Below, piece by piece: positions 2,063 to 62,239 of a stretch of 64,000 nucleotides of DNA. A program made the position numbers and the translations under genes. Every line of letters begins with the position of its first letter. Position 1 is the first letter of the stretch. This stretch comes from Proteromonas lacertae (Eukaryota): contig NGBS01000874.1 of the NCBI GenBank assembly GCA_002245135.1, positions 62,001-126,000 of the forward strand. The letters run 5' to 3'. A model generated the notes under the pieces. That model was not told where the DNA came from and did no database searches. It saw only the letters and a list, made by a program, of their open reading frames with translations.

Positions 2063-5000
2063 CTAAAAATTCTTTAAAGAATGTTTAACAGATGGTTTTG
2101 ACAATCTTGAGGATCTTTTTGATGAAACTCTTCTAGAACAACTCATATTACCATTAGGTTCGAAAAATCTATCAGGTTCAGATATTGTAGCAATAGACAT
2201 AGGAGAATAATCTAAAACTTTTGGTGTAATTGTGAATTTACCTCTAGCAGCTGCTTTTCTCAATGCTTTAGACTTAGCATGGCTTGCTCCACTGGAACCA
2301 GAACCACCAGTACTCGATCCAAATGTTGTACTAATTTCAACAGTATATAAATACATTATTTTTGAACCAAATTGTAATAATAGAATTGCTAAAACACCAA
2401 CTTCAATTCCAACACCTCTTGTCATAGCTAATATCTTTGGATCATCAGCCATTAAATAATCTAAAGGAACTAAAATCACACCCATAATTAACATTACACC
2501 AATCGTTGACATTAAAGACATTGATTCATTAAATTCAGCTGATGCTTTTCTCACACCCCATGCCATTTTCGCACCAAATAAAAATATAAATACAATTGCT
2601 ACTAATTGAATCACCACAAATATAATATTGGAAGTACATTCTTGTAAATAAATATCTTGTAAATAGGTAGAAAACTGTGAACTAAATCTCAATTCTGGTT
2701 TTGAACCATCAACAAAAGTCCATATTATCAAATACACAATTTGTACAGCTAAAATCATACCAATCATCTTCAATAATTGACCATTTGACACTTTTACTCT
2801 TTGTAAGTCTTTGTTGTTAAACAATTTATGAATTCTCCATGCTTTACAAAACATTAAACTAAACACAAAATCAATCGCTAAAGCTAAACCCCATATTCTC
2901 AATTCACATACTACTTCTGAAGATGGAGTAACAGTAAATACAATACCATCAACACTTAACAATATCAATGAGACACAAGTATAATACATAAATAAAGGAC
3001 TTGCACTTTTCATTATCTTTGTATGTCTAAATACATATACGATTGTGATTAAAACAAAACAAATGAAACTCAAAAACACAATCAAAGCCAATACAATGTT
3101 CTGATAAACTGTGCCAATATCATAATTCACTCTGGCTTTACCAAAATCACATTGATTATCATTTATATAAGTCATTTTTCCTGTTGTTTGATATGTAATA
3201 CCTTGTTTAGGATATACTTGTGTAATTGTACTTTCTAATAGTCTAAATATATACACATTCTTCTTTGCATGATTGTTATTTGCAACTGAGAAACTACCAC
3301 TTGGACTATTATAAGTAACATATTTCAAACTCAATTTAATATAATCATTAGTTGGCCAAACATTCTCACCAGTATAATCTTGAGAATATTCAACTGCTAA
3401 TTTCCATGTATAAATTGATGTATAACTTGATTCGAACAATTCACTCAAATGAACAGCATTTTGGAATTCAGAGGTTGTTAAATGTTGAAAAGCACCTGAT
3501 GCTGTATTTGAAACAACTGAATCATAGGATGATATAACATAATCACCATTCAATTCTGATCTATAACTTGATTCTATATCCATTGGATCATATTTCATAT
3601 AAAAGACAATCATTGAATTCCAATAAACACTCTTTATAATATGTGGTATAAATTGTGTATTTTCATTTGCAATAAATAAATCTACAATTCCAACTGCATC
3701 TACACCATCCATCATTGATTCTATTCTTTTCACAACCTCTTCACAAGTCACTTTATTAAATGGAGAAAAGAATGAATGTCCTAATACTTTAATACCAATT
3801 TCATTCAATGCTTGTTCTACCAAATAATATTCAGTTTCAGAAGAGTTTCTTTCACTTGCTACAATATAAGCAGATGGTACTTCTAATGATTTCCAATAAG
3901 TCTTTAAAGTTTCTATTTTCTGATTCATACTTAATCCACTAACAATTGTATTATCATTACATTGAAAACCATCATCTCTTCCAGTGAAAAAGAATAATTC
4001 ATTTTTACCACCTAAATATCTACTCACTTCAGTTCTACATTCAGGTGTTATACATCCAAATATTGTTTCTGATCTTCCTGATTCACTAATTAAACGAGCA
4101 TTTCTATATGCATCACCAATAGTCACCCATGAATGATTAGCTGCAATTTGTCGATTCAATACACCTCCTAAATTATTAATACTATCAACTATCATATCTT
4201 GTAATAATGCATTATACTTTTCAGTTCTTCCACCTAAATCTTTTTCATGCATGAATGATAATATTACAGGATTTGTATTATACCTTTCACCCTTTTCTGG
4301 ATCACTAAAATCACAAATATATCCTATTTCTGATTCATTGTATTGATTATATATTTTAGGTGTAAATGATAATGAAGGACTCCAATCAACAACTATATTA
4401 CGATTGCCATCAAATATACCAGAATAGATTCTTCTATTAACAAAATTATTTGGATTAATTTCAATTAGATCTGATGGAACACCAACTGAATAATGATATA
4501 AATCTTTCACCTCAGCAAAATTGAATGTTTTTACTTTCTTCACTATACTTTTCCATAATTCAAATGCATCATAAGCAGTTTCATATTCTGATGTAGCTTT
4601 GATTGAACCAACTCTAGAATGGAAATTTCTATTGTAAGATGCAGCTGAACTTGGAATAGTCAACTTATTATAATTTGAATCAGCTAATGTTTCAAAATAA
4701 GTACCCATCGCTATACTTCCACTTAAACAGCTTGCTTCTATATTAGCTGCAGTATTTTCATTAATTAACACATTAATAATAGTATACTTTGGCGATTTTA
4801 TTTTATTTTCACATAATACAGGATATAATTCAATTAAGTCTTCATGACTCATTATTGTAATGACATTACCTCCATCTTGAAGTGATCTAATTATATTATT
4901 TGCTACTCTTGTTGGATCTTTATCATATTCCATATTGCCATTGGATGTTATTAATATGTTCTGCATTATATCTGCAATTATATCAGCTATTTTCATTGAA

Positions 5001-8000
5001 TATGCATCTTTTGATTTAACAATATAAGCACTTGATCCAATCTCTAATAATCTACGAATAGTTGCTTCAGCCATCTGTCTTGGATGATAATGTGGAATAA
5101 TAACATTACTATAACACACATTACCAAATGCTCGACCTAAGAAGAACAAATACTTCTCTTTTCCATTGAATAATGGTCCAATTGCTTCTAATGAATCAGG
5201 ACCATATCCTCCAAAGATATATGTATATTCTGGATCATCAGCTAATATTTTAGCTTGTCTTGCATATTCTTCTACACTTGACTTTGCATCAACTACTTTA
5301 TAATTGATATAATACCCATTCAAATAAGTACCACTGTTTATATCATCAATTGCTGTCATTAACGAATCAAATATTGGTGTGTCTATAGATCTATCTTTGC
5401 CTGAAAGTGATAATAAAATTGCTATCTTGTAAGTGTCTACTATACCATCACCACCAAACAATGCTGTAGTAAAATCACATTTATGATATGTTCCTTTTGC
5501 ATCAATTTCTAAAGCTTCTGGATATTTTGTAACAGTCATATCAAATGATACTCCATAAGTGTTATTAGCATAAAACTGAATTAACTTTGGAGATCTTGAT
5601 AAATATAAATTTGGAGCAAAAAATACATCTCCTTCAGGTAAATCCATGTGTCTATTAACTAATTCGTTTCTTACATATGAATAAACTGTATTAGCAACAA
5701 TATATCCATCAGCATCAGGAGCTGTTGGCATTGAATTAATTGCATTAGCCCATAATTGAAAAGATGTATAAGTTCTTATCATTAAGTCAGATAAATATGT
5801 ATTTGCTTCTAATCTTTCATATACTTTTGATAAGAATTTTTGATTTACTTCACTTTCACTTTTAATGTTGTAAAATTCAGCACTTTCAAAATCGTTATAA
5901 CCAGCTTCATAAAACAAATTACTGTTTTCCATTACTATTAAATGATGATTTGGTTCTGCATATTTCTTGTTCTTCATAGTCTCTTTTATTACTTTAAATG
6001 AATTTAAATGACCAAAATAGATTATACAACCTCTACTGGAAGATGTGAAATTTGCTGAATATTCTTTTAGTGCATTTTCTAAATTCTTAGTTGTAATAGA
6101 CTTTTCAATTAGTGAAATATACTCAACATACAAAGAATCTAAATATTTTCTAACATAATCTGATGTAGCATGATTTGCTTTATTTCTAGTCTCAGTAATG
6201 ATTAACATATTGTCATAATATCTATTTCTGATTATGTTCATTATACTTATATAGAAAGTGCAATGTTGAATAGCTAAAAATGTATTCTTCTGACAAAAAC
6301 CAATTGGCTTTTCATTCAATTCAAAATATAATGTTTTTGAAAATATTGTCTCCAGTATTGCTTGATAACATTCAACTGGAATATCAGCAAATATCGCAAT
6401 TGGATTATACTGTTGAATAATTCCAGGTAAATCTCTAATACATATATTTACATCAGACTGAATATCAAATGTATCTGGTTTAATAGTATAACCACCTAAT
6501 GCTTTTGGATTATCATTTATCTCATTCACACATATTTGATATATATCAACTAAACCTTTTGTGTTAATTGCATCTTCTCCAGTAAGACTCGCTACTAATA
6601 ATGTACGTTGAACTGGAACTCTATATTGACTGTCCACTTTACCATTTGTAAATGAGCATTTATATCCATAAGTTTCTACAATATTCCAACTCCAAGGATT
6701 GGCTGTTTGCATATCAAACTTTGAATGCACTGTACTATAGGATTTACCATCTGCTGAGTATTTAGCAACAAAGAATGGAGCAGTAGCATAATTATTTTCG
6801 CTAATTTGAACAGAACCACTTCCTGATTGTACAGTTACACTGTATATATTCTTCTTTACTTCAGAAGAATTAAAGGTTTTAGCAAGTGTAGCTGCTTTAG
6901 CATAGAACTGTACAGCTGAATATGTTGCTTCAGCTAATGCTGTTGGTATTTTTATACCTGTATAATGATACATTTTTGTACCAAATTCAATATTTCCTGG
7001 ACTTGAATTATCATTATAGTAACGTGAGACTTTATATAAATTGCCTTTATATTCAGCCTTGATTTGGTCTACATCATCAATTTCTAACATTATATCAGCA
7101 ATGGCATATTTTGATGAATCAATTCGCACTTTAGTAGCATATTCCAAAAAGATTTTCAAATAATTTGAACTTGAAAATGTTGATAGAATAATACCTCCAT
7201 CATCTAATGTTGTAATTATTGTCTGTAATAATTCTACATTTATTGGTTTAGTAGCTGATACAATATAATTACCTGATGTTGTAAATAAACCTTTAGAAGC
7301 ATCTATAAACATTTCCATTAAATTGGTTGAAGCTTCAGCTTCATCACTAATCAAAAACATATATTTATTATAATCAGTTGAAATTAAATATTCTAAAAAT
7401 CTAGTAACATACTGACTTGCAACACAACCAGTATAATATGTATTAATATCACATTCTTGACCAGTTGTTAATCTTGGATAGAAATACAGCCTTCCTGTTT
7501 CTTTGGCTATATTCTGTGCTAGAGCTTTACAGTTTGAATTTGTACATCCAACATATGCTACTATAGAATCATCTTCTTTTGATTCTTCTAATTTTCTTTC
7601 TAAAATTGTATCATCAGAATCATAATTGATCAATTTCATCAATATTGTATGATCATTTATTAAATCACCATCATAAATTTCTCTAATTGCTGTTATTGCT
7701 CCCATTATTGCCATTTTATGAGATTGTTTCAATGAACCAGTTGTGGAATATAAAAACGCAATTCTTTTTACTGGAATTTCTCTTTCTTCATGTACATTTC
7801 CTCTTAAATAACATCTTTTCACAGTTTCATCCCTAATTATATTACCAAATGGATGGTTTATTACATCTATTTGATTCTTCCAGTAGTATTTATAAACATA
7901 ATTGCCATTATCATCAAAACTAGCTTCATCTAGTGACAATACAGCTGGTAATTGATTACTTACATCAAATCTAACTTTACCAAATACAGAATCAGTGAAT

Positions 8001-11000
8001 TGCTCATATAAACCATCTCTAAAATGACTATAATCCCATTTCTCAATATTATCACCAACTTGCTTTGTCATAGCACCAACAGTCCATCCTCTCGCTACCA
8101 TCTTATTTGTTAGACCGACATAAGAGAATCTACTTTTAAAATCATTTTCATATTTCAAAGATACTGCATCATCACTACTTTCATAAGAATCCCAATAAAA
8201 ATTACCTTTTCCTTTTATACCAATACCATTCGCTATTGTATCATCAATATTCACACTTATAACCTGAAATGTGGGTGGTACATATCCTTTTCTATACAAT
8301 TCATTAAGTAATGATAGTTTTATATCACCATCTAATAAACTAACAATCAAAGCACCTCGTGGAGCAACTCTATATATTGTATCTATTAAGAAAGAAGCAT
8401 TCTGATTTTCTGTAGTCATTTGGATTGTTAATTTAAAAGTCACATTGAAATATGCTAAATCATCAATCAAATGTTGAGCAAAATACATTGAATAAGTAGT
8501 TTCACCATATATTAATACTGTACTACCTGTATCAAGATTCATTACTATAGGAATAAATGTAAAGAATGAAGAATAAGGTAAACCAGTATAGAAACCGTTA
8601 AACATACATTCTTCACCTTCATAATCACTTGGGAATAAAACAACACCATTCATCACTTTAGAAGCATTAAACATTGCTTCTCTGATAATAGTTTTCCAAC
8701 CACCATAGAATATAAATATACTATATGTCTTTTTAAGATGTAAAATTATATCATATGCAGATTGTGGATCATTACCATCATTTTCAACTCTTAAAACTAA
8801 ATAATAACCACCAAATACACCACCTTCTTCATTTACAATATCAATGGCAGATTGCAATGCAGCATAGAATAATATACTGTCAGTTCTATATATTGGATCA
8901 GTAGAAACAATTAAAGCAACTAATGCTTTTGGTAATGCAACATTATTAGGTAAATTATTAACAAAATCACATGTATAATACTGTGGTCTATTGATTTCAT
9001 CACGATATGGTTCTCCTTTCCAATTACGAGTCACGATTTCTTTTTTCTTTACTAAACCTTCTTCTGACACTTGTGCTAATATCATATCTTGTCTTATATG
9101 ATTACTAACATCAATTTTGATTTCCTCGCCCATTATTCCTTGATAGACAGATTTATACATTTGTTGTCTTACAGTTTCAAATTCTTTATCAGCTGCATCT
9201 TCCAATATTTGCAACATTAATCCTGTAGCATCTGCAACTAATGCATCAGCATTTCTTGTTTGTTTACCACCTGATAACTTTCTAAATGTCTCTTCAAATT
9301 CCATCACTGCTGCATTTTCTTCATTAATAGCATATGGAGTATAAACATAATGACCTTTAGCATATGTTGGATCAAATCTTGAATGAGTATAATCCATCAT
9401 ATAAACTGTATATAATTCAGCAACATTTATATCAGGATACATATTCTGATAATAGTTATGGAAGATTTCGAAGAAATATTCACTATATTTATATTCTAAA
9501 ACAACTAAAAATACAGCACCTTCTGTTGGGATAAATCTAGTTGCAGTTGATAAAGCAGAGTTTAATGAAGTATTGAAGTTTTCACTTTCTGGAAGTGAAG
9601 AATTGAAGATAATATCAACACCAAAGGATTTTACAACTGAATTAAACATTTTAACTCTTCCTTGATATAATGGATTTGCAGAATATAAAAATACTTTCTT
9701 TCTTTGTTCAGTATAGATAAAGTGTATTGCTGATGGTAAAATAGCTTGTGATGGGGAAACAGATAAGTAAATAATATTTCTAATACATTGTCCACCTGGA
9801 TTTGGGCCTGTGTAAAAGAATATGAAATCTAATGCTTCTACTGACTTAACAATTAAATCTCTAGATTCTATACTACATCCACCAATAATAAATTTGAAAT
9901 TTCTGTTGTATAAATCCATTATCTTTGTGGCAGCATCAGAATTATCTGTTGGACATTGATATACTTCAGAATACTATTTAATAATATATAAATATAAAAC
10001 ATACTAACGGTTTCTTTTTCATTCCATTATCATAATTCATACTTTCAATAAACATACTTGCAATCATGTAATCTAATAAACCTCTGTTGTCTCTATCATT
10101 TATATCTAAAAAGAAGGCAATTCCATAATAATCAGTAACTGCAGTTAATCCACTAACTGATAAATCAGTTCTTAAATATTCACCATCATTATTCTAAAAA
10201 ATAAAATATTATTACAATATATATATATATATATATACTAAAAAATAAAACTCTCTTGGCATAACTGGATATGGTAATTCCATAACTACCTCAATTGTAG
10301 TAAAGCTAGTTATTTTACCTATATTCACATGAGAAGCTACATAATTATTAGATTTTACTCTTCCTTTACCATCAGGTAAATCTAATCTATATTCATATAA
10401 TGCTTTTAACAAATAAGTTGCAGTATTTTCTTCAGATTCAGTTCTTGCTTTAACAATAAATTGCATAGTGTTGTACAATATAATCATGTCTTTATTCATA
10501 TTATCCACAGCTGTTCCTTTATATTCAGTTATTAAGTCTCTCAGTTGTTCATTCACTGTAAAGTTATTACGTCTATAGTATGGCAGTTGAGCATAATGTC
10601 CTTCATAAATACTATCATTATCATAACCATTAAAATAGTCAAATGTGAAATCAGATATTAATAATGGATACTTATCTGAAGAAAAATCCTCATTATATTG
10701 AATCATAAAATCCACAGTTTGTTCTTCTAAGAATGTAATAGTAAGAAAACTATCAAACGTATTATTCAATGGCTTGATATGTGTTTCATAATTTGTTTCA
10801 TTCAAAACAATCATAATTGGTGTTTTCTGAATATAATTAGCAAATTTAACTGTCAATTCTGCTTTATCCATACTCAATGTACTATTTGAACTGACTATTA
10901 CTACATTATCAAAGTTAGCATAAGCCCATAATGTTTGATAAGACACAATTTGATGGGATAAATAATTCATCACTATTATATTCTTATGAATAATTTCACC

Positions 11001-13812
11001 TCTACTTTCAGAGAATGCAAAACACAACATATCTTTTGAAACAAGATAACTATCTAATGCTTTTCTCTCTTCTTCACTATTTGCTCCAATATAACATAAG
11101 AAATTAGTTTCACTATCCATAAACTTTTGTGCATATTCTCTTATTGTTTTACTATCACCAGCATATCCATTGTGTTTTATAATAATATCTCTTCCAGAAA
11201 TACCACCATTTTGATTCACCAAAGCAACAATCAACTGCAATTCTAAATATCTTTGAGATCCATATTCAGATTCAATATCAAACAATAAACCAATAATAAA
11301 TGAATAAGTTGGTTTTTGTACTATTTCATCTAACAAATTACAGGTTTGTTTATAATCATGAAATGGATATCCTCTTTGTGAAAATGTATCTTCACTAACT
11401 ATTTCAAATGGATCAACACCATCATTAACAGCTACAACTGTTTTATTCATCTGCAACATTCTTATAGCTCCTTGACCTATACCAGAAGAATATATTTCAT
11501 ATGGTCCAGCTACTGGATCTTGAGTACTTCGTCTGAATAAATATGGTTTATATTTTGATGGTAATGTTGAACTAGAAACAGTTATTGCTCTACCAATTTG
11601 TTGGAATACATTATATATCAAAGATATATCATCATCTAATGGGTAATGTTCATCAACCATCATTGTATTTATTCCATCTAAAAATTTCCTATCAAATGAA
11701 TATGTTTTATTATCGTAACTTGTATAAGAATGTGCAAATATAATTGTACCATTATAAAGTTCATATCCTGTATCATACATATATATTGGATTTAAATCTA
11801 ATGAAATAATGGTATAATTATTATCTATTGTTAAACCAAATTCTTGAAACTTCTCATACAATACTTTCTGATATTCATTTTCTACTGTTGTAATAATAAA
11901 TGATCCATTTTGAGCATAATTCTGAATAGCTCTCATTATCTCATCAATTCTTGAGATGTTATTAATATCAATTATATCTCTAAATGGTCTCATATTGGTG
12001 GGTAATTTAGCTTCAGGTATTGCTTCAAATATTCGATCTTTTGTTTCTTGTCCATATTTATTAACACTTCCTATGAAATAATAATATTGTTCATCCGATG
12101 TTTTTAGATAATTCACCAATCGATTGACATAATTTAAGTTTACTGGATGAGTTGATACTAAATTTGGCTGACAAATATCACCTTCATTTGGACCAAAATA
12201 GAAGAATAAAACATCTTTATCCACGAATGGTAATGTAATATTATCTCTAATTTCAGGAGTTCCGGATAAGAATATCGTTCTTGCATCATAATCTTCAATA
12301 TAATCATTAATCTATACATAAAAAAATAATAATATAATAATCAATAAATAAATACAAGTTCAATAGTGTTTTGGATATTATCTTCAATATTAATCGTGAT
12401 TATTTTAACCATTCTATCTAAAATACCTGAATTCCTTTGATTTATATAGTTTATCAATTCTAATAACATCTTTCTATGAAAATTCTCTTGATAATCATGC
12501 ATTCCATTGATCTTTCTAACATCTAAAAAGTATATATAATCCACAGTTGCATTTCCATCTTCATAACTAAGTGTAAAACTACATGTTGTTGCTGTTGGAT
12601 CTCCAAATACCAAATCAGGTTCAAATAAATATGCGATTGGAATTGTATAAACCTCTGTTCTTTTGTTTGCAGTAGAATCAATAACGTAGGTGTAATAACT
12701 TGTAGTTAAATAATGATTATCTAATAACATTATATCACCACCACCATATTGAAATCTCCTTCCATACAATACATCTAATAAAATGAATGGATTTGTTGCT
12801 TGAGTATGTTCAACAGCATAAACCAACATTTTTGCTATTCCAATACTAATCATTTATATATTAAAAAAAATAAAATATTGATTATATATATATATAATTA
12901 TACTGATAAATCTCAGTTATTCTCACTTTTGTATCTGTTGCATGAAGATAATTATTCTCATAATCAGTTTTATCGTCATTCTGGAGTTTATCAGAATATC
13001 CTAATATTATCATATTACCTACATTATCTGTCATACCACTAATTTTATCCCACATTATTCCTCCTTCGCCATATAAAACTATTGTTTTTGATTGGAGAGA
13101 CTCACCCTTTAATTTATCGATAAAAGCTTGAGCATCAGTATCTTTTTGAAATGTGGTAAATGTCAACACTTTTGTACCTTGATAATCTGTAAGATTCTTA
13201 ATGTAACTATCTATTGTAGAAGTCATATCTGCAGCTGTGAGATTGTAGTAAGATGCTAATTTCTTTAATCCCATATATTCTCCTATTGCAAATAATTGAT
13301 CGTTGTAAAATTCATCAATTCCATTAAATGCACTATTACCTATAAATCCTATTGCATCTACTTTTGATGATACAGCAAATATCACTATTACCATATATTA
13401 TAAAATAGATAAATATATAAAATATACGTGCATTTAACACTGGCACTAGAGAATTGCCCATAACATAGTGTTTAAGGCATCTGCCAATATTGTAAGTATT
13501 TACACACCATATAATCAGATTATTAGTTTCTAAGTAGCTATAGTTGAAATTCAGGATATCTTCATCACAAAAACTATAAATTAACTGAATATGTTCATCT
13601 ACCAATTTATTCAAACAATCATTTGCTGATACTGATGCAGTAATATTGCAATCAAATAAATTAATATCAGTTCCACTTGGACTCTTCATATTAGCAAAAT
13701 ATTGTTTCATGACAACTACATTTCTGTTATCATCACCTCCTACTCTTTGAATGAAACCTACATCAAAACACTCAACTGAGAAAATTAAAAATAGGTAGAT
13801 TAATAAAATCAT
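2063..13812 (-). CDS. Giant class C (GABA-B-like) GPCR with nine tandem periplasmic-binding (Venus flytrap) domains, ~3842 aa
   Basis: Exons 13812-13428, 13384-12904, 12845-12356, 12311-10239, 10193-10005 and 9973-2063 join in frame through GT-AG introns of 43, 58, 44, 45 and 31 nt (11529 nt total). Signal peptide MILLIYLFLIFSVEC; ~387-aa repeats; seven hydrophobic helices with class C motifs IMKSASPLF, CELRIW, KAWRIHKLF and EFNES. Confidence 0.92.
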
Positions 13813-13945: not shown

Positions 13946-14475
13946 TTAAGCTGAAACAAATACAGAATTAAGTTGATCTCCAGTTGGAGACAGTTCTCTT
14001 GGTATATTCTTAACAACAACAGTATTATATCCTCCACAAAATGCACATTTGTGGTATTTAAAGTGAAATTTTGCATAACACTTCTTTTCACAATCATTAC
14101 ACAAAATTAAATTATATAATCCATCATATTCAGCTGGCAATTTGTTTTTCTCTAACTCTTCATCAATTAATTTATAATATTCAACAGCATCATAAATAGA
14201 CTTTGAACATAAAGGACAAGTATAATGATTCTTTAAATAGGATGATAAGCATGATTTGTGTATGATATGACCACATCTCAACGAGCAGGCTTGTTCTGTA
14301 GATTCGAATAAATTCTCAAAACAGATTGGACAATCAGATTTCAATCCTTCTCCTACGCATTTATGACCTTCTCGTTGGAAACATCCTTGACATTTATCAC
14401 AATGGAAATAATCTTCTTTCTTTCCAATACGACAAATTTTACATTTTTCACAATGCTATTTGGATGATAAATTAA

Positions 14476-14508
<33 letters not shown>

Positions 14509-15238
14509 GAATATATTGGTATTTGGATCATCATTATAGAAATGACAATAATCACAGTAATATCTAGCAAATTGAATATGGCAACTACTGCATTCATTGC
14601 TAATAGCTTGAACTTGACCACATTTCATACATTTGACTGTTTTGATTATATATCTGTTTATTTCGTGATTCTCTTTTTCATTATGACATAAACGACAAGT
14701 GTAGAATTTGTGACAACATTCTGCTAATATTGCACACTTCTTCTGATAATGTTTACATCCCATTATATTTTTATCTTCATCCTACAATTGTATCATATAA
14801 ATATATATACGAAATATGTTGCATGTATATCATCTAAATTCATCTCAACTTCTGGAACAGATCCAGCTCTTAATAATGGTGTAAAACTGTTATGTTCTCT
14901 GAAATGAAGAATAGTCTAGTAAAGTTAACAATAATGAAAATACTTGAACTAACTCACTTCTTTCACTTATGGTGAGATTCTCTACTTTCTTTAGCTCTTC
15001 TAATGTTTTTCTTATAATTGTTTTCTATTTACTCAATTATAACCATTCTATACTTCTAACTTCATTTTATCATCATCATTAACATATTCATCACTGTTAA
15101 TTCTTTCATCATATAGTTTATTTAAATAGTCCTAAAAATTAAACACCAAAATGATACAGTTAGTTTATCACAATTGTGAAAATATTTCTGAGGTATTTTG
15201 ATGGCTCTTGGTCTAAAACAGAAACAATTATTCATCAT
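13946..15238 (-). CDS. RCHY1: CHY zinc finger + RING-H2 + zinc ribbon E3 ligase (Pirh2/RCHY1-like)
   Basis: GCKHYQKKC..CCHKFYTCRLCH (CHY), CPICFE..CGHIIHKSC..CPLC (RING) and ILCNDC..HKCAFCGGYNT; 5' exons splice in frame from ATG 15238. Confidence 0.9.
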
Positions 15239-22555: not shown

Positions 22556-25500
22556 ATGAAAGGTGTTTCATGTATAATCAATATGATATTATATAAAAAA
22601 AATAGTTGGGGTGAGGACAGATACAACTTTCCAATCAAATACATCTGAGGATGCAAACATAGAGTCAGAAGCACTAGAAAGAGCTCATAATGCATTTGCT
22701 AATGTTGTTATGCAAAAAGCAGGTGAAAAAATCCACAAAATATCGTCAGAGTTAGAAGATAACAAAATAAGGCTAAAAATAAGTGAAGAGTATATATAGA
22801 ATTATCATTAATCTATACATTGTTGTAGAAGTCGGGAGAAGATGAGTTTAGCATTAAAGGACGCTACTGAGCGTTTTGAATCACTACAGAAGACTATGTT
22901 ACTTGCAGAAAAGGCAGTTGATGCTGTTGAAAGTGAAATACTTGTTAAGTCAAGAATGACAGATAAAATGAGTAAAGAAATTGAAGCTCATGTTGATACT
23001 GAAGCAGACCTAAGGATAGCACTTAAAAACTCAAACAAAGAATTAAAGAAAACAGTAGAATTTGTAGTATCATTACAAACAATAATGGTTGCTTTAAAAC
23101 AAGATATAAAAGCAAGATCAACAATACAAGACAGGTTAATAAGAGATGTTGAATCACTAGAAATAGAAAAGAAGAAATACTCAGACAAATGTGAAAAATT
23201 AAACCAAAAAATACAAAAATTAGAAAATGAGAAGAGTGAAGTATATCATAACTTTGAAGAGCAAAAGCAAGAAACATTAATTGCACAGCGTGAGGTTGAT
23301 AAATTATCATGTGATGTAGAAGCATTATTAGCTAGTAAAACTGTTTTATTACAACAGTGGCAAGAAGCAATGAATTCAATGTGTGAAAGAAATAATACTT
23401 TGTTTGTATATAATAATATATCTATTTATTTATTATTATTATTATTTATAGAAAGTAATTCAAGAAAAAGAATTTATTGAAAATGAAATGAAAGCAATTA
23501 ATACAGATACAAGTACCTATACAAATGAAATAAAATCACTACATCAATATGTATTATAAAAACCATCATCATTTTCTTATATTCATTTATTAATAGATAA
23601 AGAATCTAGAAACTCAAGTTGAACTACAAAATAAAACAATGGTTGTTTATAGAAAAGAAGTTGATAAATATGAAGGAGAAATAAAACTGTTGAAAAGATC
23701 AGTGGAAGAGACAAGAGCAAGGTATGAAAAGTCGTTACAAGAACAGAAATACATTGATAATGTAAAGAAAGAAGCTGAAATCAGATATGTAACAAAAGAT
23801 GCAAGATCAAGAATAGAGAATGCAGAAACTAAAGCTAATGAAGAAAAAGAATTGAGAGAAAGAATAGAAAAAAATAGAATAGATCAATTGAATAGATTAC
23901 ACGAAAAGCACTTTCAAGAGAAAATAGAAACTGAAATGAGTATGAATAATGCAAAAATTAGTTTGAATAAGAATTCCATCAAGTATGTGGAGTTGGAAAG
24001 GAAATATGATGAGATGTTGAATGAATATAATGTTCTATTGGAGAAATATGAAAATTCTACAAAAATGAATGAGAAATATGAAATAAAATTATATAAACAT
24101 CAAAATGAACTGTTATATAGAAATTATAAAGAAAATAAAACTGATTATAAATTTAATAAAATGATAGAAGAATATAAAGAAAGAGAAACCAATTACAATG
24201 TATTAATATTATATTATTTATTATAATAAATAGACTGAAATAAATAAACTAAAGAATGAAATAACAGATTTAAATAAAATCATCAAAACTCAAGAAGATG
24301 ATATAAAAAAGACATCTACACAAGCAATAAAACGAAGTGAAATAATAATAGATAAAGAAAAAGATATAGATAATGTAATAGGTGAAAATTTAGCATTGAA
24401 ATCAATGAAACAAAGATCAGATCGTGAAAGTGATACTTTACAGAAACAGAATTTGGAATTATTAAAAACAGAGTCGTTAAGTCATGTAAAAGTTAGACAA
24501 ATACAACAAAGTAATAATGAATTAGTCCAAGAGAATAAATTGTTAAAGAAACAAGTCGAAGATCTTCAAGCGATGTTGGAAGTGAGAGAAGTGGAGTATA
24601 AAAATGCTGTGGATATATATAAAGAGAAATTAGTATTGAGTAAAAAAGATAAAGAATCATGTATATATATATATAAATTTCATATGTTTTATTTATTATA
24701 GTAACAAATAATCAAGTTTCTACAAACAATCAACTGTATTTTGCAAGATATAGATTAAACTCAATGACAGAATTGCATAATGAAAAGAATAAGAAAGTCA
24801 AAGAACTTGAAACAGAAGTATTTGATTTAAAAATGACAATTGAAAAGATGAAGAGAAATATAGCCAAACAAGATTGTTTAATTAATAAACTAACTGAAAG
24901 ATTAGAGACTAAATTGGAACTACCAGTTCATCATTATAAAAGTACAAATAATTTATCACCTCGAAGTACAAATACACAGTATTGTACTAAATCTGAATTA
25001 ATGAATGTTACAAAAGAAAAGTATTTATATCCTATTAATCATTTAATGTTATTCTTTTTTATAGGAAGAAACTGGAAAGTGATTTGAATCAAGCAACTTT
25101 ACAATATGCTTCCTTATTAAATGAAACATTTCAATTGAGACAACAAAATAGAGAATTATTAGAACATGAAAAGAAGTTAAGTTTCAATACAGACGTTAAT
25201 CAAAATGCAATTGAAGATTTGAATAATGATATAAAATCCTATGCGTATTATTTATTTATTTATTTATTTATCATAGTGCAAGAATGGTTGAATTAACCAA
25301 TAAATACTTCAGAGTCGAAGGAATTGCTTGTAATTTAGATTTACAGTTAAGAAAAGCATATCCTGTTAATGAAATTTCGTATGAGTATATACCTGATATT
25401 AAACCATCTGAAGAACTTCATCAAGCGATAAACAATGAGTTAAATACACCATTAAACCATTCTCCAATCTGTACACCAGTATAAAAATATATACTATGTT

Positions 25501-40099: not shown

Positions 40100-41902
40100 A
40101 TGCCTCGTATTGATTGCATTTATACTCTTTTCTAGTTTCAAAAAATCAACTAATCATAGCTGCAGTAGGCGGAACACTTGCTGTTGCTGGTATTGCAACG
40201 TATTACTTTTATTTTTTTTTATTTTAGAATTTTGTACCGTCGTCATAAGAAAAATAGTAAATCAAAAGAACAAAAATCGAATGATGAAAGAAAAACAATC
40301 GAACAACAAAATGTATAGTATTTAAATTAATACCAACAATAGGTTGAAGAAGAAGTTCCAGAGAGGATAGTGGAAAGCAGACCATCTGTAGCATCTACTC
40401 CAAAAGATAATTCAGCTGAATTAGAGCAATTAAAATCTGAAGCAATACAATTTTTCAAAAAGGGTAAATATGATGAAGCAATTAAAGCATTCACAAAAGT
40501 GTTAGAAGCACCAAATAGCACTGATAAAGACAGAGTGTTATATAATCGAGGATCTTGTTATGAACAACTTAAAGAATATGAAAAAGCAATTCAAGACTTG
40601 ACTCAAGCCGTTCAAATCAATAGAAAATACCAAAAAGCTTTCCAAAAGAGAGCAAAATGTTATGAACAATTAAATCAACTTGAAGAAGCTTTGGCTGATT
40701 ATAATATCGTTTATATCATTGGTTTAATAGATAATAAACAAGATATACCACCACAAATAGAAAAAATCTCCTTGCAAGTAGGTAAAAAACGAGCTGCAGA
40801 GAAGATTTTACTTCGAAATGAAAAAACAATAACTTATGAATTTCCACAAGAGCATAGTATTAGATTATATTTATCAGGATTTACTGAAAAACTTGAGCAT
40901 GACAAGCCAACCGAAAGTTTAGATGAATTAAATGAAATGATTGGTTTAGATCCAGATAGTGGTGATTTATATTACAATAGAGCTGTTATGTATTTAAGTG
41001 AAAAGAATTACGTTGAAGCTGAACAAGATTTCAGATTTGCTTTAGAAATGGATTCGCAATATAAAATAAAAGCCTTATTACAATTAACCATATTTTCAAT
41101 TGTAAAATGCAATTTCCTTCAAGCTCAAATATACACTGACCAAGGTTTAAAATTAACAAATGAGTGTAATACTGAAGATGATAAGAAATATAACAAAATG
41201 TTTATGTATTTCAATTCACAAATTAAATTTGAAACAAATAAACCTGAAGAAGGAATTGAATTATCCAATGCTTTAGTTGAAAAATATCCAACTTATCCCG
41301 ATGTTTATTTACAAAGAGCACAACACTATTTCTTAAAAGAAGACTTTAAAAACTGTCAAGAGAACTTAGAGAAAGCGATTGAATTAAATCCTAACTATGG
41401 AATGGCCTATTTTCAACTTGCACTTGTTGGTGTTAAGTTAGAAAAATATGAAGAAGCTTTGAAGAATTTTCAGAAAGCTGTTGAAGTGATTCCCGATCTT
41501 GGTTATGTTTATAATTTCTATTCAGAGTTTTTATTCTCTACTAATCAACTTGGATTGGCATTTAAGATGGTTGAGACTGGTATTGAAAAAGATCCTACTT
41601 TTCCTTTGAATTATTTAACAAAAGCTGCATTTATAGCTCAAACAGATCCTTCTAGACAAAGTGAGGTTAATGAATTATATAAGAAAGCTTTAGATATTGA
41701 TCCAACTTGTGTTGCATCCTATGAGAAATTAGCTATGTCATTTTTAATGGCAATGCAATGTGATGATGCAATAAGATATTTAAATAAAGCTGTTACATAC
41801 TGTAAGAATGATGCTGAATTAGAAGAGATTTATGCAAGCATGGTTTCTGCCGAAGGTAAGAAGGCTGCATTAGATTATGCATCAAAATTTTTATCCAACT
41901 AA
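40100..41902 (+). CDS. TOM70: Mitochondrial import receptor Tom70
   Basis: Spliced N-terminal anchor QLIIAAVGGTLAVAGIATILYRRHKK followed by a TPR clamp (LKSEAIQFFKKGKYDEAI) and a long TPR array. Confidence 0.85.
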
Positions 41903-46709: not shown

Positions 46710-48187
46710 TTAGTAATTAGCAATTCTATTACATGCACTTCCATAATAATTATCATAACATTCACAGATCCCTTTTGATTCATCACAAATACCTTTTCCA
46801 CTACACTTCCAATTGACCTTGGACTGGAAAGCCAAGAGGATCTGTATTTGGATATTTATAAATGTTATATTGCCTGAACCAGTATGGCATCTCCCTTTAA
46901 TATCCAGTGGAAAAGATGGAAAGTTATTAGCAGTTAATCGATGATTAGAATAACAAGCAGCCTTATCATCTATTAAACTACGATATTTCATTAACCATAC
47001 TGCTTGTGATGCAGTGGATTGAAATGATCCATAAGTATTGTCATTATCATAACCACTTCCATCATTTTTCCATTTAGCTCTTTCAATACCATACAACAAA
47101 GCATTGTCTTTACTACCATTTTTATATACATTTAATTCCATCATTAATATTGGAGTAATATCAATATAATCTAATGTTAATATTACAGTAACAAAATTAC
47201 CATCTTGATAAGTATTTGATGTTTTTATTTTTTTAGTACTACCATCAATCTCTTCCTTTTTATCGCCTGAACATATTAATGTAATATTTACAGGAGTGAA
47301 ATATGGTAAATGTCTTAATTTCTTTTTCAATTCTTCTTTAAACAATATTCCTAAATCAACATTCAATTCATAAGGTGAAGATGAAGAACATAATCCTTCA
47401 TAAGAATCAATTGTTGGTGTTTTATATTTCATTCCATAATAATTAAATTCTAAATAATGAGATATAGTACCTCCATTTCCATTTGGAGGGTCAGTAGGTC
47501 TATTTTCAGAAGAATCCAATAATGTATAAGCAAACTGAAATAATGTTTGGTAATACTTCGGATCATATCCCTTATTACACACTCTCTTATCACAATAAAC
47601 TCCTTTCCATCCTTTATCACATAAACATCGATTATATTTCTTCAATTCCCAACTATTACTACCTTCTTCACCACCTGTTGCTATTTTTATATAATCATCA
47701 CTACTTACACAAATTCCATTTCCATTACAATCTTTTACTGAATCATTTGGACGACATTTACGACGTTGACATGCACTACCTTCAAAACCTTCATTACATT
47801 TACATAAACCTGTGAGTCTATTACACTTTCCAGCATTTGAACACTCTCTGTAAGAATGTGGTCTATCTTGTGTATCATTCTCATCCCATTCTTTTATTCC
47901 CATTCCATTTGGATATAATTCTGTTCTTACACGTGTTTTATCAATTACACCATCACCATTTAAATCTCCCAACGGACTTACTTGTAATGCTTCACCAAAA
48001 GGGCAAACTCCTATTAATTTTATTAAATAATATTCCTGGTCATACTATAAGAACAATCACTGTTATAATAGCCTGGATAACAACGACAAAAACCTTTCTC
48101 ATCACAATACCCATTTTCACAATCTTCAGTACATGATAGACCAATAGTGAAAGGAATTAAAAATACAGCTAACCATATAATAATCAT
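46710..48187 (-). CDS. Secreted EGF-like protein of the stramenopile tubular-mastigoneme family (Sig1/Ocm1-like)
   Basis: Signal peptide; CPFG....SPLGDLNGDG, H.YRECSNAGKCNRLTGLCKC.EGFEGSACQR and C.KG.DP motifs; single C-terminal EGF (CSGKGICD..G.CEC); intron 48011-48045. Confidence 0.8.
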
Positions 48188-48516: not shown

Positions 48517-49556
48517 ATGGATGGGTCTAAAGGATCCACCTCGATAGGGTCTCATTCATCTCCATTTACAAATGGTAGTATAAGAAGGACAATGGTTCAT
48601 AATTCAAGTGTTGTTTTAACTACTGTGATTACCTCACAAAGAATAAGGGTAGAATCGCGTCAGTCTCTCCATTCTGTTCATCCTCCAAGAAATAATAGTG
48701 TAAGCCAGCTGAGTATGTCAGAAGGTGATTATAAACAGCTTACTTCAAGAAGTAGTGTTAAAAACCTGCTCATTTCGTTAGGTTCGGCAAGAAAGAACCA
48801 GCCTGCTTTAGATAGAAAAACAGAAGCTGCAATTCAAATTCAATCAGTCATAAGACGAATGTTGGTTATGAGATGGTATGAGAAGAAAGCTGACGATAGA
48901 AAGATGCAGAGAATAAACGTATTAGAAGATATAGCCAATGGAAGAGGAGGAATTCCAATGGAATTATATAACTCAAAGTCCTTTATCAGATACGTAGTTC
49001 CAGGAATAAAAAAAGACTATAAAATACTAATAGAAACATGTAGAGACAAAAATGTATAAATAGTTTTATTAATTTATTTGAATAGACTCCTAAACATATG
49101 AAGGATCGTATATTAACAATTTTATTTATGAGTTTATCAACTCCTTTAGATTATATAGATGATAATAAAATGGGAATATTATTGACAGATATATTATTAT
49201 TCCCATTTCACAAAACACAAATTTTTGAATTATCTCTCAATATAGACATACCTAAAACACCAATTTATTTGAGAACGTTTTTAAATTGGTTTTATCAATA
49301 TAATGAGATGTATCCAATTCAAAACAAAGGGTTGTTTAAGAAGATGTTTGAAACTGATCATTTTGATGATTTGCCTGATTTTTTTATTTATCATTTCAGT
49401 GAATTTAGATCTAGTTTATATGATGTTATTCTGACATTTAACAAAATTGACCAGATTAATCCTTGTCAGTTTAAATGTAAGAAGTGTTACAAACAGTTTG
49501 TGTATCCACTTGAATTGGGGAAACATATTGTACAATATCACAAGAAATGTAATTAG
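48517..49556 (+). CDS. IQ-motif / C-terminal zinc finger protein, paralog 1 of 5
   Basis: SSVKNLL, AAIQIQSVIRRMLV and CKKCYKQF..P.EL.KH; one intron. Confidence 0.75.
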
Positions 49557-49714
49557 ATGTAATGTATAGGATTTATTATAATTTATTTTAATGTAAATTT
49601 TGTTTTTTTATGAAATGAAATATATTCGTTTCATAGCTTTTCGTTACATTTTTTATTTTCATTTTTCGATTTTTTGGGACATATAAATAATATTTTGAAA
49701 GGTACACTTTTCTT

Positions 49715-50830
49715 ATGAGTATATATGATGATGACGATGAGGAAGACTATGATCCAAGAGAGTTCAGAACTTCCGTACAGATTTTAAATAACACAACAGG
49801 TAAAAGAACTGTAACACAAATAAAAATAAAACCCAGACATGAAAGCGAGAATTTTTCACAATGCTCAGGTTATGATAATAATAATTCTTACAAAGCGTTG
49901 AGTTCAGCATCTAGTGTTAAAAATTTACTTTTATATTATGGTTCAAGTTCTTCAAGAGCATTAGTATTATTATTAATTTATTACTAACGTTGGAATAGGG
50001 TAAAATCACTAAATCAAGAAAACCAACCAAGAATGAATATACACGTGATTCAGCTTGTATAAAAATACAACAAATAGTCAGAGGGTTCTTAATAAGGCGA
50101 AGATATGAAATAGCTTTTACTCAAAGAATTGTATATTTTTTTATTATTGTATTTTCAAATTAAATAGGATTCCAGAATGATTATAATGCATGATGCAATA
50201 TCTCGTAATGGTGGTGCACCTGATAGACTAAGGCCTTATTCACTAGAATATGATGATGTATCAAAAGCAGCAGATAGAGACTTGAGATTCTTAATATCCA
50301 AAATCATCGATCCAGCCAATGTAATAGATAAATCAACTGAAAGAATAATGTCAATATTATTCAACTGTACAAGTAGAAATGGTGAGTTTATAATGCCTGA
50401 TGAATTTGCAATCTTAGTATGTGATGTACTAGATTTACCTTACACTAAAACACAAGTTATGACTCCTGGACCAAATTGTATTGATTTTCCACAGTTTCCT
50501 TTGGATTTTAACAATTTATTTAATTGGTGGATTATGTACATTAGTACACATACTTTGAAAGTGAAGAATGATTCAGTTTTTAGTTTTACTAAACAGTTTC
50601 CTATTAATTTCTTATCAAAGTTTATTGAAATTAGAGCAACAATGTATGATGTTTTATTTTCATTGAATAAATTTGAAGAAACTAATAAACCATTGTTTCA
50701 ATGTAGGGTGTGTAAAAAAGAATTTGGTTCACCCAAAAAATGTGCTGAGCATGTGATTAAATGTGAAAAAGCAAAGAAGAAAAAGGAAGAAAGATTTAGA
50801 ATAAGATCTCCCAAAGAGCCAACTATATAG
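49715..50830 (+). CDS. IQ-motif / zinc finger protein, paralog 2 of 5
   Basis: SSVKNLL, ACIKIQQIVRGFL and CRVCKKEF..P.KC.EH..KC; two introns. Confidence 0.75.
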
Positions 50831-51076
50831 AAGAGCAATCAACTCAATTTTGTGTATTTTATCAATTTTCCTTTATTTTGTGACATATGTAACTTAGATA
50901 TTTTTTTGATTTTTGTTAATCATTATTTATTTTGTGTAATAAGGGTATTTGGTTTTTATATATGTTTTATGCAATATCATCATTTTAAATATGGGTGTAT
51001 GAATAAGAAACAAAATTATTTTTTGTTTTTTTAAGAATCACAAAGAAAAGGCTGGAGTTCGTTATAAAAAATAAAA

Positions 51077-52191
51077 ATGAATTCCTTCACAGTAGGAGAA
51101 AGTAAATATCTTTACGATAATAAGGAGCTGAAAAGAGGCAGCTTACCTGTCACTTTTGTTAGAACAATCCCTCTTACCCCACCTACTACTGAAAGAAAAA
51201 CTCATGTATCCGCTATTTCTGACACATCAAGAAGTATAACATACGTACAATCCCCAAAACCAATGAGTGAGAACTCTCAGACTACATATGACAGAATGAG
51301 AAGGCAGACGAATGTGAAGAACATTTTAATATCGTTATCCACCAATTTTACTCAAATAAAGAAGGTATTCCAATTAATCATATAAAATCATAGAAAAAAG
51401 TAATTCTAAAAAGGGATCCATACATAATAGTTCAATCTATAATCAGGCGGCATTTAGTTTTACATAAATACAAAGAAGCTGAATTAAACAGATTAATTAA
51501 CAGAAGTTTAGTTATTGAAGAGATATTTAATTTAAAGAAACGTAAAACTGTAGCTAACTATGAATGTACATTAGACAAAAAAACACATAAATTGATTTTA
51601 AAAGAAATTGTATTTCTAGTAAATCAAATAAAAGATTATAATGTATAATTTTCATATATATGTTGATATTATATAGACTAAAAATGATATGTGTGTTAGG
51701 ATGTTATTTCTGCTATATTCTTGTCTTTCTAACAGTGATGATAAAATGAGTATGTTCAATTATGCTACTCTATTATTTGATGTATTTCAATTCCCTGTCT
51801 CGAAGAAATTATATTTAGAAAAATCAGGAGTGGTCGTTCCTTACTCTTATTCGCCACATTGGTGTTCAAGAGACTTTGTTTCTTGGTTTCTAAGATGTAT
51901 TTTGCTAATATTAATCATGTATATTATATAGATAAAGAGTATCCTAGTTTTCCTAAAAGTACTATAAAATCATTGCCAAAGTCTTTTATAAATAGTAAAA
52001 TTGGAATTGATTTTATAAAAAAGTATTGTATGTGCAGGAGAAATTTATATGACTTAAAAATATCACTTGAGAAATATGATGGAGTTAATAAATGTACTTT
52101 TGTTTGTAGATATTGTCAGAAAGACTATGTTTTTCCTTTAGCTTGTGCAAAACATGCTTCTAAATGTCAAAATTCACAAAAGAGTCTGTAA
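51077..52191 (+). CDS. IQ-motif / zinc finger protein, paralog 3 of 5
   Basis: TNVKNIL, IIVQSIIRRHLV and CRYCQKDY..P..C.KH..KC; three introns. Confidence 0.7.
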
Positions 52192-52377
52192 ATTTAGTTA
52201 GTATTTTGTAAAAAAACGTATTTGTTGATTATAGTGTTTATATTTCTAAGTATTTTATTTATAATACTATATTAGAAAGGTGCAAATTTTAACAGTATAA
52301 ACGTTCTCACCTTTGTTTAAACACAGAAAAAATTGTTAACTCAAAACGGCTATAATTTTGTTAAACACTTTTCAAAA

Positions 52378-53428: not shown

Positions 53429-53636
53429 ATAGTTTCTTTCTTACAATTTTCACAATAATTGTTGTAGTATCTCGTGATTTTATTTATATATTTAAATCAT
53501 TTTTCTGTTTTTATTACATTTTGTGGAGTTGGTTTTTTAAACGTTTTTCTATTAATTTTTTGTATAACCAAAATTTCGAAAAACGGATAATTTTTTAGAA
53601 TGCCGTTTTGATATTTGTTTTATTTATTTATTAGAC

Positions 53637-61998: not shown

Positions 61999-62239
61999 CA
62001 ACTAATATTTATCCATTTGTATTTCTTAAAATCTGTTTGTGTTATTGGTGAATTATAGTGTAATTATTTCGTAATTTTCGCTCTCATGAGCGTATTGCAT
62101 AATAAATTGGCTGTCGCTCATGTATTTAGATGCAACATCATTACTTATTCATAATATCATATTAATCTCAAAATTGAAAAGTTTGAAAACACAAATCATC
62201 AAGCCAAAATTACATTTTTTCTATTCGAAGAAAACACAC

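What the first reader, a model, noticed from the sequence alone, without database searches (positions are those of the whole stretch)
2063..13812. Giant class C GPCR carrying nine tandem Venus-flytrap sensor domains
Five ORF-track fragments plus one unlisted exon splice into a single ~3842-aa receptor: signal peptide, nine ~387-aa periplasmic-binding-protein repeats, then a GABA-B-like 7TM domain. First strands of the repeats lie near 13767, 12545, 11304, 10131, 8928, 7770, 6610, 5432 and 4270. Characterised class C GPCRs (mGluR, GABA-B, CaSR, T1R) have a single flytrap. The nine copies are highly diverged from each other, suggesting one chain that integrates several small-molecule ligands or forms a long sensory stalk. 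This could be an undescribed multi-ligand chemosensory architecture in a protist.
Basis: partly seen in the sequence, partly recalled or inferred. Interest (0 to 1): 0.92.

Follow-up and report, generated by a model that had tools for sequence, protein, structure and literature searches.

The report
Nine-flytrap class C GPCR family
A gene of a likely single-celled eukaryote is predicted to splice into a GABA-B-like membrane receptor whose outer part is a chain of nine bacterial-type urea-binding clamps instead of the single clamp of our receptors; all nine have lost the urea-binding residues, likely only two still sense a small molecule, and the rest are predicted to form a stiff stalk.

Summary
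Six exons joined at five AT-rich GT-AG introns give 3,842 aa: signal peptide, nine type I periplasmic-binding (flytrap) domains, and a GABA-B-like 7tm_3. An unnamed 3,886-aa relative aligns end to end (45% identity, no gap at any junction). The repeats are of the bacterial UrtA/AmiC urea/amide-binding type, not the animal ANF type. They include the cyanobacterial-type C-terminal hairpin, which here serves as the linker. Three-domain models (pTM 0.86 and 0.90) predict a fixed chain geometry.

The 'nine ligands' reading is weakly supported. Each repeat keeps only 0-2 of 8 urea residues, and pocket conservation exceeds background only in repeats 5 and 9.

The design is not unique: 30 of 150 listed representatives have at least 2 such domains plus a 7TM. 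They include Capsaspora (3), a chytrid (2) and an unnamed protein with at least 9, five of them with intact urea sites. Seven literature searches found no description of tandem arrays in class C GPCRs; catalogues list Peripla_BP+7tm_3 without copy number. The scan holds no look-alike note, only a single-domain diatom analogue. Splicing, ligands, dimerisation and G-protein coupling are untested. New variant of a known kind.

The parts
13428..13812 (-). Exon 1: start codon, signal peptide (aa 1-15, 13812-13768), start of repeat R1
13385..13427 (-). Intron 1, 43 nt. An in-phase alternative acceptor at 13358 would drop 9 aa; the 43-nt choice aligns gap-free with P0001 and P0004
12904..13384 (-). 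Exon 2 (R1)
12846..12903 (-). Intron 2, 58 nt
12356..12845 (-). Exon 3 (end of R1, start of R2)
12312..12355 (-). Intron 3, 44 nt
10239..12311 (-). Exon 4 (rest of R2, most of R3)
10194..10238 (-). Intron 4, 45 nt
10005..10193 (-). Exon 5 (end of R3, start of R4)
9974..10004 (-). Intron 5, 31 nt
2063..9973 (-). Exon 6, one open frame of 2,636 aa: rest of R4, R5-R9, 7TM, tail, stop. On its own it already joins six PBP domains to 7tm_3
12572..13767 (-). R1 (aa 16-380), most diverged repeat; 0/8 urea residues; 30-32% identical to orthologues
11331..12571 (-). R2 (aa 381-779); PF13433 33.5 bits on its exon-4 part; 2/8
10155..11330 (-). R3 (aa 780-1156); PF13433 61.5; 0/8; has lost both cysteines of the linker pair, as has R3 of P0001 and P0004
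8960..10154 (-). R4 (aa 1157-1544); PF13433 66.6; 1/8
7802..8959 (-). R5 (aa 1545-1930); 2/8; conserved acidic pocket W1632, D1656, E1658, D1754, N1781; candidate live site
6647..7801 (-). R6 (aa 1931-2315); PF13433 115; 2/8; pocket less conserved than background
5468..6646 (-). R7 (aa 2316-2708); PF13433 35.6; 0/8; pocket variable
4304..5467 (-). R8 (aa 2709-3096); model matches cyanobacterial UrtA (Z 46, rmsd 3.1 A, 383 aligned) including the C-terminal hairpin; 0/8; pocket variable
3140..4303 (-). R9 (aa 3097-3484), membrane-proximal; matches urea-binding protein 8tg1 and AmiC (Z 43, rmsd 2.2-2.3 A, about 355 aligned); 0/8; near-invariant charged pocket R3205, D3206, D3207, R3248, N3249, S3250 in orthologues; candidate live site
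2357..3139 (-). Short stalk (predicted strand) and 7tm_3 domain, aa 3485-3745; TM3/ECL2 Cys 3562/3652; best PDB sequence match GABA-B2 (E 3e-14)
2066..2356 (-). Cytoplasmic tail, aa 3746-3842, Ser/basic-rich; 44-60% identical to orthologues

Best explanation
The gene is predicted to encode a class C-type GPCR whose ectodomain is a likely stiff, ordered chain of nine UrtA-derived flytrap domains, of which likely only R9 (next to the membrane) and R5 still bind small molecules other than urea, while the other seven would act as spacer and scaffold.

Shown by sequence: the domain order; loss of the urea signature in all nine repeats; position-specific conservation in orthologues; pocket conservation only in R5 and R9.

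Predicted by models: type I PBP folds for R5-R9, a fixed packing between neighbours, and a 7TM with a short stalk.

Inferred: each domain is pinned by a disulfide between lobe 1 and its C-terminal hairpin, which runs into the first strand of the next domain. Closure of R9 around an anionic ligand (two Arg and a Lys face the cleft) would pull on the stalk and ECL2, much as in GABA-B, and switch a heterotrimeric G protein. The acidic R5 pocket has lost the Tyr that binds urea's carbonyl oxygen, and carries Asp where UrtA has Gln144 and Asn246. It would suit a cationic urea-like ligand (guanidinium, ammonium or amine type) and would modulate signalling through the rigid chain. The ancestral form would be a polyvalent urea/amide receptor such as P0010.
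For: Architecture. UrtA/AmiC kinship. Urea residues from Wang 2023 (PMC10392092): window repeats keep 0, 2, 0, 1, 2, 2, 0, 0, 0 of 8; 0 of 201 repeats of the AT-rich type keep more than 4, while P0010 keeps 8/8 in 5 of 9. Pocket against background among 4 close orthologues: R9 0.85 vs 0.59 (p 0.005), R5 0.62 vs 0.35 (p 0.010), the other seven p 0.26-0.98. In the 8-member group: R9 +0.20, R5 +0.25, R6-R8 -0.09 to -0.20. The position-5 pocket is also above background in 2 of 2 other groups that could be tested. Fixed geometry: pTM 0.86 (R8-R9-7TM) and 0.90 (R5-R7). The cysteine pair is present or absent together in 229 of 246 domains. Orthologue identity rises from about 31% (R1) to about 60% (R9) and 67% (7TM).
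Against: The pocket test uses 13 positions and only 4-7 relatives; after correcting for nine tests R9 is borderline (0.045) and R5 is not significant (0.09). The conserved R9 pocket is not general: in 5 of 6 other groups the membrane-proximal pocket is below background, and across 61 family members it is 0.15 vs 0.19. The R9 charges could form cross-cleft salt bridges that lock it shut rather than bind a ligand. Variable pockets in R6-R8 could reflect diversifying selection rather than loss of binding. R1, R2 and R4 pockets lie at or slightly above background on 3-7 pairs. pTM is indirect, and no coordinates or PAE were available. R1-R4 were not modelled. No G-alpha gene was seen, since only this window is held.
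Confidence: 0.5

Rival explanations
1. All or most of the nine domains are live, each with its own ligand, and the chain integrates them.
For: All nine positions are kept in order in orthologues, and each groups with its positional counterpart at support 0.97-1.0. Across paralogues the pocket is the most variable part, as expected if specificity diversifies. Dupre 2015 suggest the same for BvgS homologues with up to five flytraps (PMC4352136).
Against: Seven of nine pockets are not conserved above background among orthologues, and R6-R8 lie below it. Conservation falls with distance from the membrane.
Confidence: 0.15
2. The whole ectodomain is a non-binding stalk or protein-interaction surface, and the receptor is a constitutive, orphan or partner subunit, as GABA-B2 is (recalled), possibly paired with one of its many paralogues.
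For: No repeat keeps the urea site. The membrane-proximal domain is also degenerate in P0010, P0032, P0038 and P0050. BvgS has an unliganded, closed proximal flytrap. The best 7TM match is GABA-B2. The ectodomain has 29 N-glycosylation sequons.
Against: A near-invariant charged pocket in R9, and an acidic pocket at position 5 kept in 3 of 3 groups, are hard to explain for a pure spacer.
Confidence: 0.28
3. It is still a urea/short-amide sensor like its UrtA/AmiC ancestors.
For: The best fold and sequence matches are urea- and amide-binding proteins, and relatives keep intact sites.
Against: 0-2 of 8 residues are kept. Tyr190 and Asn246, which are needed for binding in Wang 2023, are absent from all nine repeats, as is Gln144; Ser122 survives only in R6.
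Confidence: 0.04
4. Artefact: separate genes or a mis-assembly joined by the gene model.
For: The splice is inferred; the R1 exon pieces have no Pfam hit.
Against: Exon 6 alone holds six PBPs plus the 7TM in one frame. P0001 and P0004 carry R1-R9 in one protein collinearly. There is no DNA-level repeat.
Confidence: 0.03

Closest known systems
GABA-B receptor (GABBR1/2) and protist GABA-B-like class C GPCRs
   Same: 7tm_3 with GABA-B2 as best PDB match (E 3e-14); flytrap joined to TM1 by a short stalk without a cysteine-rich domain; TM3/ECL2 cysteines, basic TM3 end, acidic TM6 start.
   Different: Nine flytraps instead of one; UrtA/AmiC type instead of ANF type. Flytrap plus 7TM superpose on GABA-B only at about 25 A rmsd, suggesting a different mounting; TM7 has SK where class C has PK.
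Cyanobacterial UrtA (7s6e, 7s6f, 8hic), urea-binding protein 8tg1 and Pseudomonas AmiC
   Same: Fold (Z 42-46, rmsd 2.2-3.1 A), cysteine pair and C-terminal hairpin.
   Different: Free single-domain bacterial proteins with an intact urea/amide site; window repeats score 23-92 bits on TIGR03407 (cut-off 492.75) and keep 0-2 of 8 site residues.
Capsaspora CAOG_05347 (P0038) and Phlyctochytrium HDU96_010091 (P0050)
   Same: Tandem UrtA-like domains (3 and 2) followed by 7tm_3; degenerate membrane-proximal domain. CAOG_05347 is in the dataset of Krishnan 2012.
   Different: Fewer repeats; P0050 keeps a largely intact urea site; annotated only as hypothetical or 'GPCR family 3 domain'; their 7TMs lie outside the AT-rich clade of the window gene.
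BvgS-family sensor kinases (1-5 flytraps) and trypanosome receptor adenylate cyclases (2 flytraps)
   Same: Tandem flytraps on one signalling chain; distal and proximal domains with different roles.
   Different: Single-pass proteins with kinase or cyclase output, at most five domains; BvgS flytraps are type II (recalled).
Non-animal class C GPCRs with other bacterial binding domains (Bmp, OpuAC, SBP_bac_1, sugar SBPs; diatoms, chytrids, gut fungi, Dictyostelium)
   Same: Independent recruitment of bacterial solute-binding domains to 7tm_3.
   Different: In the passages read they are not described as tandem arrays; reported N-termini reach 730-1,667 aa, against about 3,495 aa here.

Membership tests
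Class C (Glutamate) GPCRs | 7tm_3 seven-helix domain above the curated cut-off | tested here: met
   131.5 bits vs 33.5; seven helices by hydropathy and in the model
Class C (Glutamate) GPCRs | TM3-ECL2 cysteines, basic residues at the cytoplasmic end of TM3, acidic residue at TM6 (features as listed in PMC3727952) | tested here: met
   C3562, C3652, K/R at 3583-3586, E at 3689
Class C (Glutamate) GPCRs | PK motif in TM7 | tested here: inconclusive
   SK at the equivalent place in the window gene, P0001 and P0002; the Lys is kept, the Pro is not
Class C (Glutamate) GPCRs | Signal peptide and extracellular type I flytrap domain | tested here: met
   Hydrophobic aa 2-20; nine type I PBP domains
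Class C (Glutamate) GPCRs | Obligate dimer | not testable with these tools
Class C (Glutamate) GPCRs | Coupling to heterotrimeric G proteins | not testable with these tools
   No whole genome held; needs an assay
mGlu/CaSR/T1R subgroup | Nine-cysteine domain (NCD3G) between flytrap and TM1 | tested here: not met
   No NCD3G hit; only about 15 residues from C3481 to TM1
GABA-B subfamily | Single ANF_receptor-type flytrap | tested here: not met
   Nine domains; ANF_receptor reported only for R5, at 19.4 bits (cut-off 25.4), while PF13433 wins in every repeat scanned
UrtA/FmdD urea ABC substrate-binding proteins | Type I PBP fold with the UrtA C-terminal extension | tested here: met
   R8 Z 46 to 7s6e over model residues 5-399; R5-R7 model best hits are UrtA
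UrtA/FmdD urea ABC substrate-binding proteins | Urea-site residues W120, S122, Y141, Q144, E146, Y190, N246, S274 | tested here: not met
   0-2 of 8 in each of nine repeats
UrtA/FmdD urea ABC substrate-binding proteins | TIGR03407 curated score | tested here: not met
   23-92 bits vs 492.75 for the 8 repeats scanned
BvgS-family multi-flytrap sensors | Histidine-kinase output after a single transmembrane helix | tested here: not met
   The output is 7tm_3 with a 97-aa tail and no kinase domain

The most novel reading that the evidence does not exclude
An unrecognised eukaryotic branch of class C GPCRs arose by fusing a urea-binding UrtA domain to a GABA-B-like 7TM and concatenating it into rigid arrays of 2 to at least 9 units. 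Ligand binding several domains away from the membrane is relayed mechanically through neighbouring flytraps to the 7TM. One form (P0010) is a polyvalent urea/amide receptor; the AT-rich stramenopile-like lineage turned the array into an expanded multi-input chemosensory repertoire with remodelled pockets.
Probability: 0.3. Interest if true: 0.9.

Novelty: new variant of a known kind. Interest (0 to 1): 0.72.

Why it matters
Class C GPCR activation is understood as one flytrap per chain closing next to the membrane. A chain of nine, kept in order across orthologues only about 45% identical, raises a testable question: can a distal flytrap signal through others? R5 here, and the intact urea sites of P0010, P0032 and P0050 that lie beyond a degenerate proximal domain, are direct test cases. 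The family also shows a separate bacterial source (UrtA) for class C ectodomains and points to candidate eukaryotic urea/amide GPCRs. It may account for the 116 class C GPCR and 182 PBP-I InterPro counts of Proteromonas lacertae in a published table, a repertoire absent from all 8 Blastocystis genomes in that table. Self-linking UrtA modules could also serve biosensor design.

Tried and rejected
No whole genome is held, so paralogues and G-alpha genes could not be counted; the window's 824 six-frame pieces hold no second copy. Search for RNA runs: no RNA holder listed. A word-index search with R9+7TM among proteins of 351-1119 aa found nothing at E<=0.001 among 7,998 candidates, although the HMMER search later found such proteins. 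The JGI metagenome scan confirmed 0 of 315 pattern matches. The Blastocystis end-of-gene motif (recalled) is not enriched: 7 found vs 6.3 expected. Blastocystis as host lineage was set aside because the 8 genomes in Lind 2025 Table S5 have no class C GPCR, G-alpha or CCDC40. The ESM Atlas did not complete, the complex-prediction tool for an R9 homodimer was not available, and the VIA-align search of the second model was not run. The Proteromonas genome paper (DOI recalled) is not held. The 70-nt version of intron 1 was rejected. The idea that the membrane-proximal pocket is conserved family-wide was rejected. No solved structure in the listed Foldseek rows covers more than about one domain of the R5-R7 model (TM-score by query at most 0.31).
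Full report
Observation. The minus strand between 13812 and 2063 holds six coding blocks. Joining them at five GT-AG introns of 43, 58, 44, 45 and 31 nt (88-93% AT) gives 11,529 nt and 3,842 aa without an internal stop, with a hydrophobic N-terminus and seven C-terminal hydrophobic helices. Exon 6 alone, one frame of 2,636 aa, already carries six PF13433 stretches and 7tm_3. Scanned one by one (14 pieces), R2 to R9 pass the PF13433 cut-off and 7tm_3 scores 131.5 bits; the three R1 pieces and the two short pieces that start R2 and R4 have no PBP hit. Spliced R1 scores 53 bits on a profile trained without it, against a maximum of 3.9 in 200 shuffles. The repeats share 11-19% identity and no DNA similarity, and GC and GC3 match five neighbours. 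Neither mis-assembly nor contamination explains the gene.

Support for the join. A search among proteins of 1,449-4,613 aa gave 4 hits among 5,173 candidates, all unnamed Logan proteins. P0001 (3,886 aa) aligns over residues 7-3838 at 44.7%, and P0004 over R1 to the start of R9 at 39%. P0001 stays in register across all five junctions, and Pfam finds 9 PF13433 stretches plus 7tm_3 in it. How those proteins were called is not shown. P0003 and P0004 end in what looks like intron read-through, which suggests plain open-frame calls and hence R1-R9 in one frame in P0004 (inference). No transcript was seen.

What the repeats are. The best matches are cyanobacterial UrtA, a second urea-binding protein and AmiC, by sequence and by fold. 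The R8-R9-7TM model has pLDDT 93.8 and pTM 0.86 (68 sequences); R5-R7 has 92.0 and 0.90 (44 sequences). R8 aligns to UrtA at Z 46, rmsd 3.1 A over 383 residues, through the C-terminal hairpin, which here leads into the first strand of R9. A lobe-1 cysteine and the cysteine of that hairpin occur together in 199, and are both missing in 30, of 246 full-length domains; 17 have only one (the domains are related, so this is not an independent count). R3 has lost both in the window gene, P0001 and P0004. I infer a disulfide-pinned linker and, from the high pTM of three-domain chains, a fixed geometry. Coordinates and PAE were not available, and R1-R4 were not modelled. Flytrap plus 7TM superpose on GABA-B at about 25 A rmsd, which suggests a different mounting of the proximal domain; that GABA-B sits on lobe 2 is recalled.

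Ligand sites. Wang 2023 (PMC10392092; passages read) lists eight conserved urea-site residues. The window's repeats keep 0, 2, 0, 1, 2, 2, 0, 0 and 0 of them, and 0 of 201 repeats of the AT-rich type keep more than four. Among four close orthologues, 13 pocket positions are conserved above background in R9 (0.85 vs 0.59, p 0.005) and R5 (0.62 vs 0.35, p 0.010), and in none of the other seven (p 0.26-0.98); after nine tests R9 is borderline and R5 is not significant. In the 8-member group the differences are +0.20 for R9, +0.25 for R5 and -0.09 to -0.20 for R6-R8. Against the reading: the proximal pocket is below background in 5 of 6 other groups and over 61 family members, so the R9 site is special to this orthologue group. 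For the reading: the fifth pocket from the membrane is above background in both other groups that could be tested, and family-wide (p 0.036, n 37). R9 presents Arg, Asp, Asp, Arg and Lys, fitting an anion or a self-locked cleft; R5 is acidic, fitting a cationic urea-like ligand (inference).

The family. A profile of R8-R9-7TM against 1.84 billion representatives gave 4,782 hits, of which 150 were listed. With my own profiles, 58 of the 150 have at least two PBP domains, and 30 have at least two plus a 7TM. Many are fragments, so the copy numbers are minima. Pfam was run on 23 chosen proteins: 20 showed PBP plus 7tm_3, 19 of them above the 7tm_3 cut-off. Twenty-six of the 30 have an AT-rich-type composition, and those with a long enough 7TM form one clade with the window gene (support 0.994; 84 domains of at least 200 aa, FastTree; shared composition may help). 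Their repeats group largely by position from the membrane, with exceptions in P0019 and P0052 (128 domains from 43 chosen proteins), so an ordered array of at least five predates this expansion. The other four are Capsaspora CAOG_05347 (3 domains), Phlyctochytrium HDU96_010091 (2), JGI P0032 (3) and Logan P0010 (at least 9). P0010 keeps 8/8 urea residues in 5 of 9 domains and P0032 in 1 of 3, and in all four the proximal domain is degenerate. In that tree the eukaryotic repeats group with the cysteine-bearing UrtA of Synechococcus and Alkalinema type (0.965), but bacterial sampling was small and biased, so no donor is claimed.

Organism and context. The neighbours are ordinary eukaryotic genes (25 frames scanned). 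One matches tubular mastigoneme proteins (E 3.8e-24) and one weakly matches CCDC40 (E 1.6e-4), which points to a flagellated stramenopile. In Table S5 of Lind 2025 (PMC12129017; passages, section 8 and table rows read), Proteromonas lacertae has 116 class C GPCR, 182 PBP-I, 7 G-alpha and 75 RGS entries, while eight Blastocystis genomes have no class C GPCR or G-alpha. A Proteromonas-like lineage with a working G-protein system is therefore likely, not shown.

What is in print. Krishnan 2012 (PMC3251606; passages, section 20 and supplements searched) includes CAOG_05347 and gives N-termini up to 1,667 aa, but names no tandem array in the section read; its Figure 5 is not held. De Mendoza 2014 (PMC3971589; passages and supplement text, one file not searched) lists Peripla_BP plus 7tm_3 without copy number. 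Port 2013 (PMC3727952, passages), Seppala 2016 (PMC5168858, passages) and Zhang 2014 (PMC8687355, passages) describe other binding domains. Tandem flytraps are known outside GPCRs: BvgS family, 1-5 (PMC4352136, passages), and trypanosome cyclases, 2 (PMC6027212, passages). Seven searches turned up no paper describing tandem arrays in class C GPCRs, judged from listings and the passages above. The library lacks most subscription papers, including the Proteromonas genome paper, and figures and unseen supplements may bear on this. The scan's own notes hold nothing on this genome or sequence and one single-domain diatom analogue.

Verdict. The architecture is real (about 0.95) and appears undescribed as such. 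It passes the sequence tests for a class C GPCR but not for GABA-B, mGlu/CaSR/T1R or UrtA membership. The most likely mechanism is a stiff nine-unit chain with two live, remodelled sites (0.5). A purely structural ectodomain (0.28) and a nine-ligand integrator (0.15) remain open. Novelty: new variant of a known kind. Interest 0.72.

Noticed in passing
P0010 (unnamed Logan protein, 3,745 aa, N-terminally incomplete): At least nine UrtA domains plus 7tm_3, five with all eight urea residues and 20-52% identity among repeats: a better candidate than the window gene for a polyvalent urea/amide GPCR, from an organism of different amino-acid composition.
   Followed up: partly
window 46710-48044 (-): Homologue of tubular mastigoneme proteins (PDB 9ufe, E 3.8e-24).
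   Followed up: partly
window 22812-25087 (+): Coiled-coil gene whose first exon weakly matches CCDC40 (E 1.6e-4); it looks strongly diverged.
   Followed up: partly
window 48517-54999 (+): Four or five tandem paralogues of an unannotated protein with C-terminal Cys/His motifs, 23-49% identical in most matched pieces.
   Followed up: partly
window 62155-63999 (+): Start of a large PA14 plus He_PIG surface protein that runs off the window.
   Followed up: no
window 40343-41902 (+): Tom70-like TPR protein with only two close relatives (77-82%, unnamed) and a drop to 27% or less beyond them.
   Followed up: partly
window 13946-14781 (-): zf-CHY plus RING gene (RCHY1/Pirh2-like, name recalled) ends only 133 bp upstream of the receptor's start codon.
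   Followed up: no
P0057 (also P0059, P0142, P0153): Proteins of 1,450-1,600 aa with a UrtA domain at each end; P0057 has HEAT repeats and a weak NB-ARC hit between them.
   Followed up: no
P0086: A 1,203-aa protein with two 7tm_3-like domains in one chain.
   Followed up: no
P0003, P0004, P0011-P0013 and other partial members: Many family members end about 150-225 aa into the membrane-proximal domain, suggesting a shared intron position that the window gene lacks.
   Followed up: no
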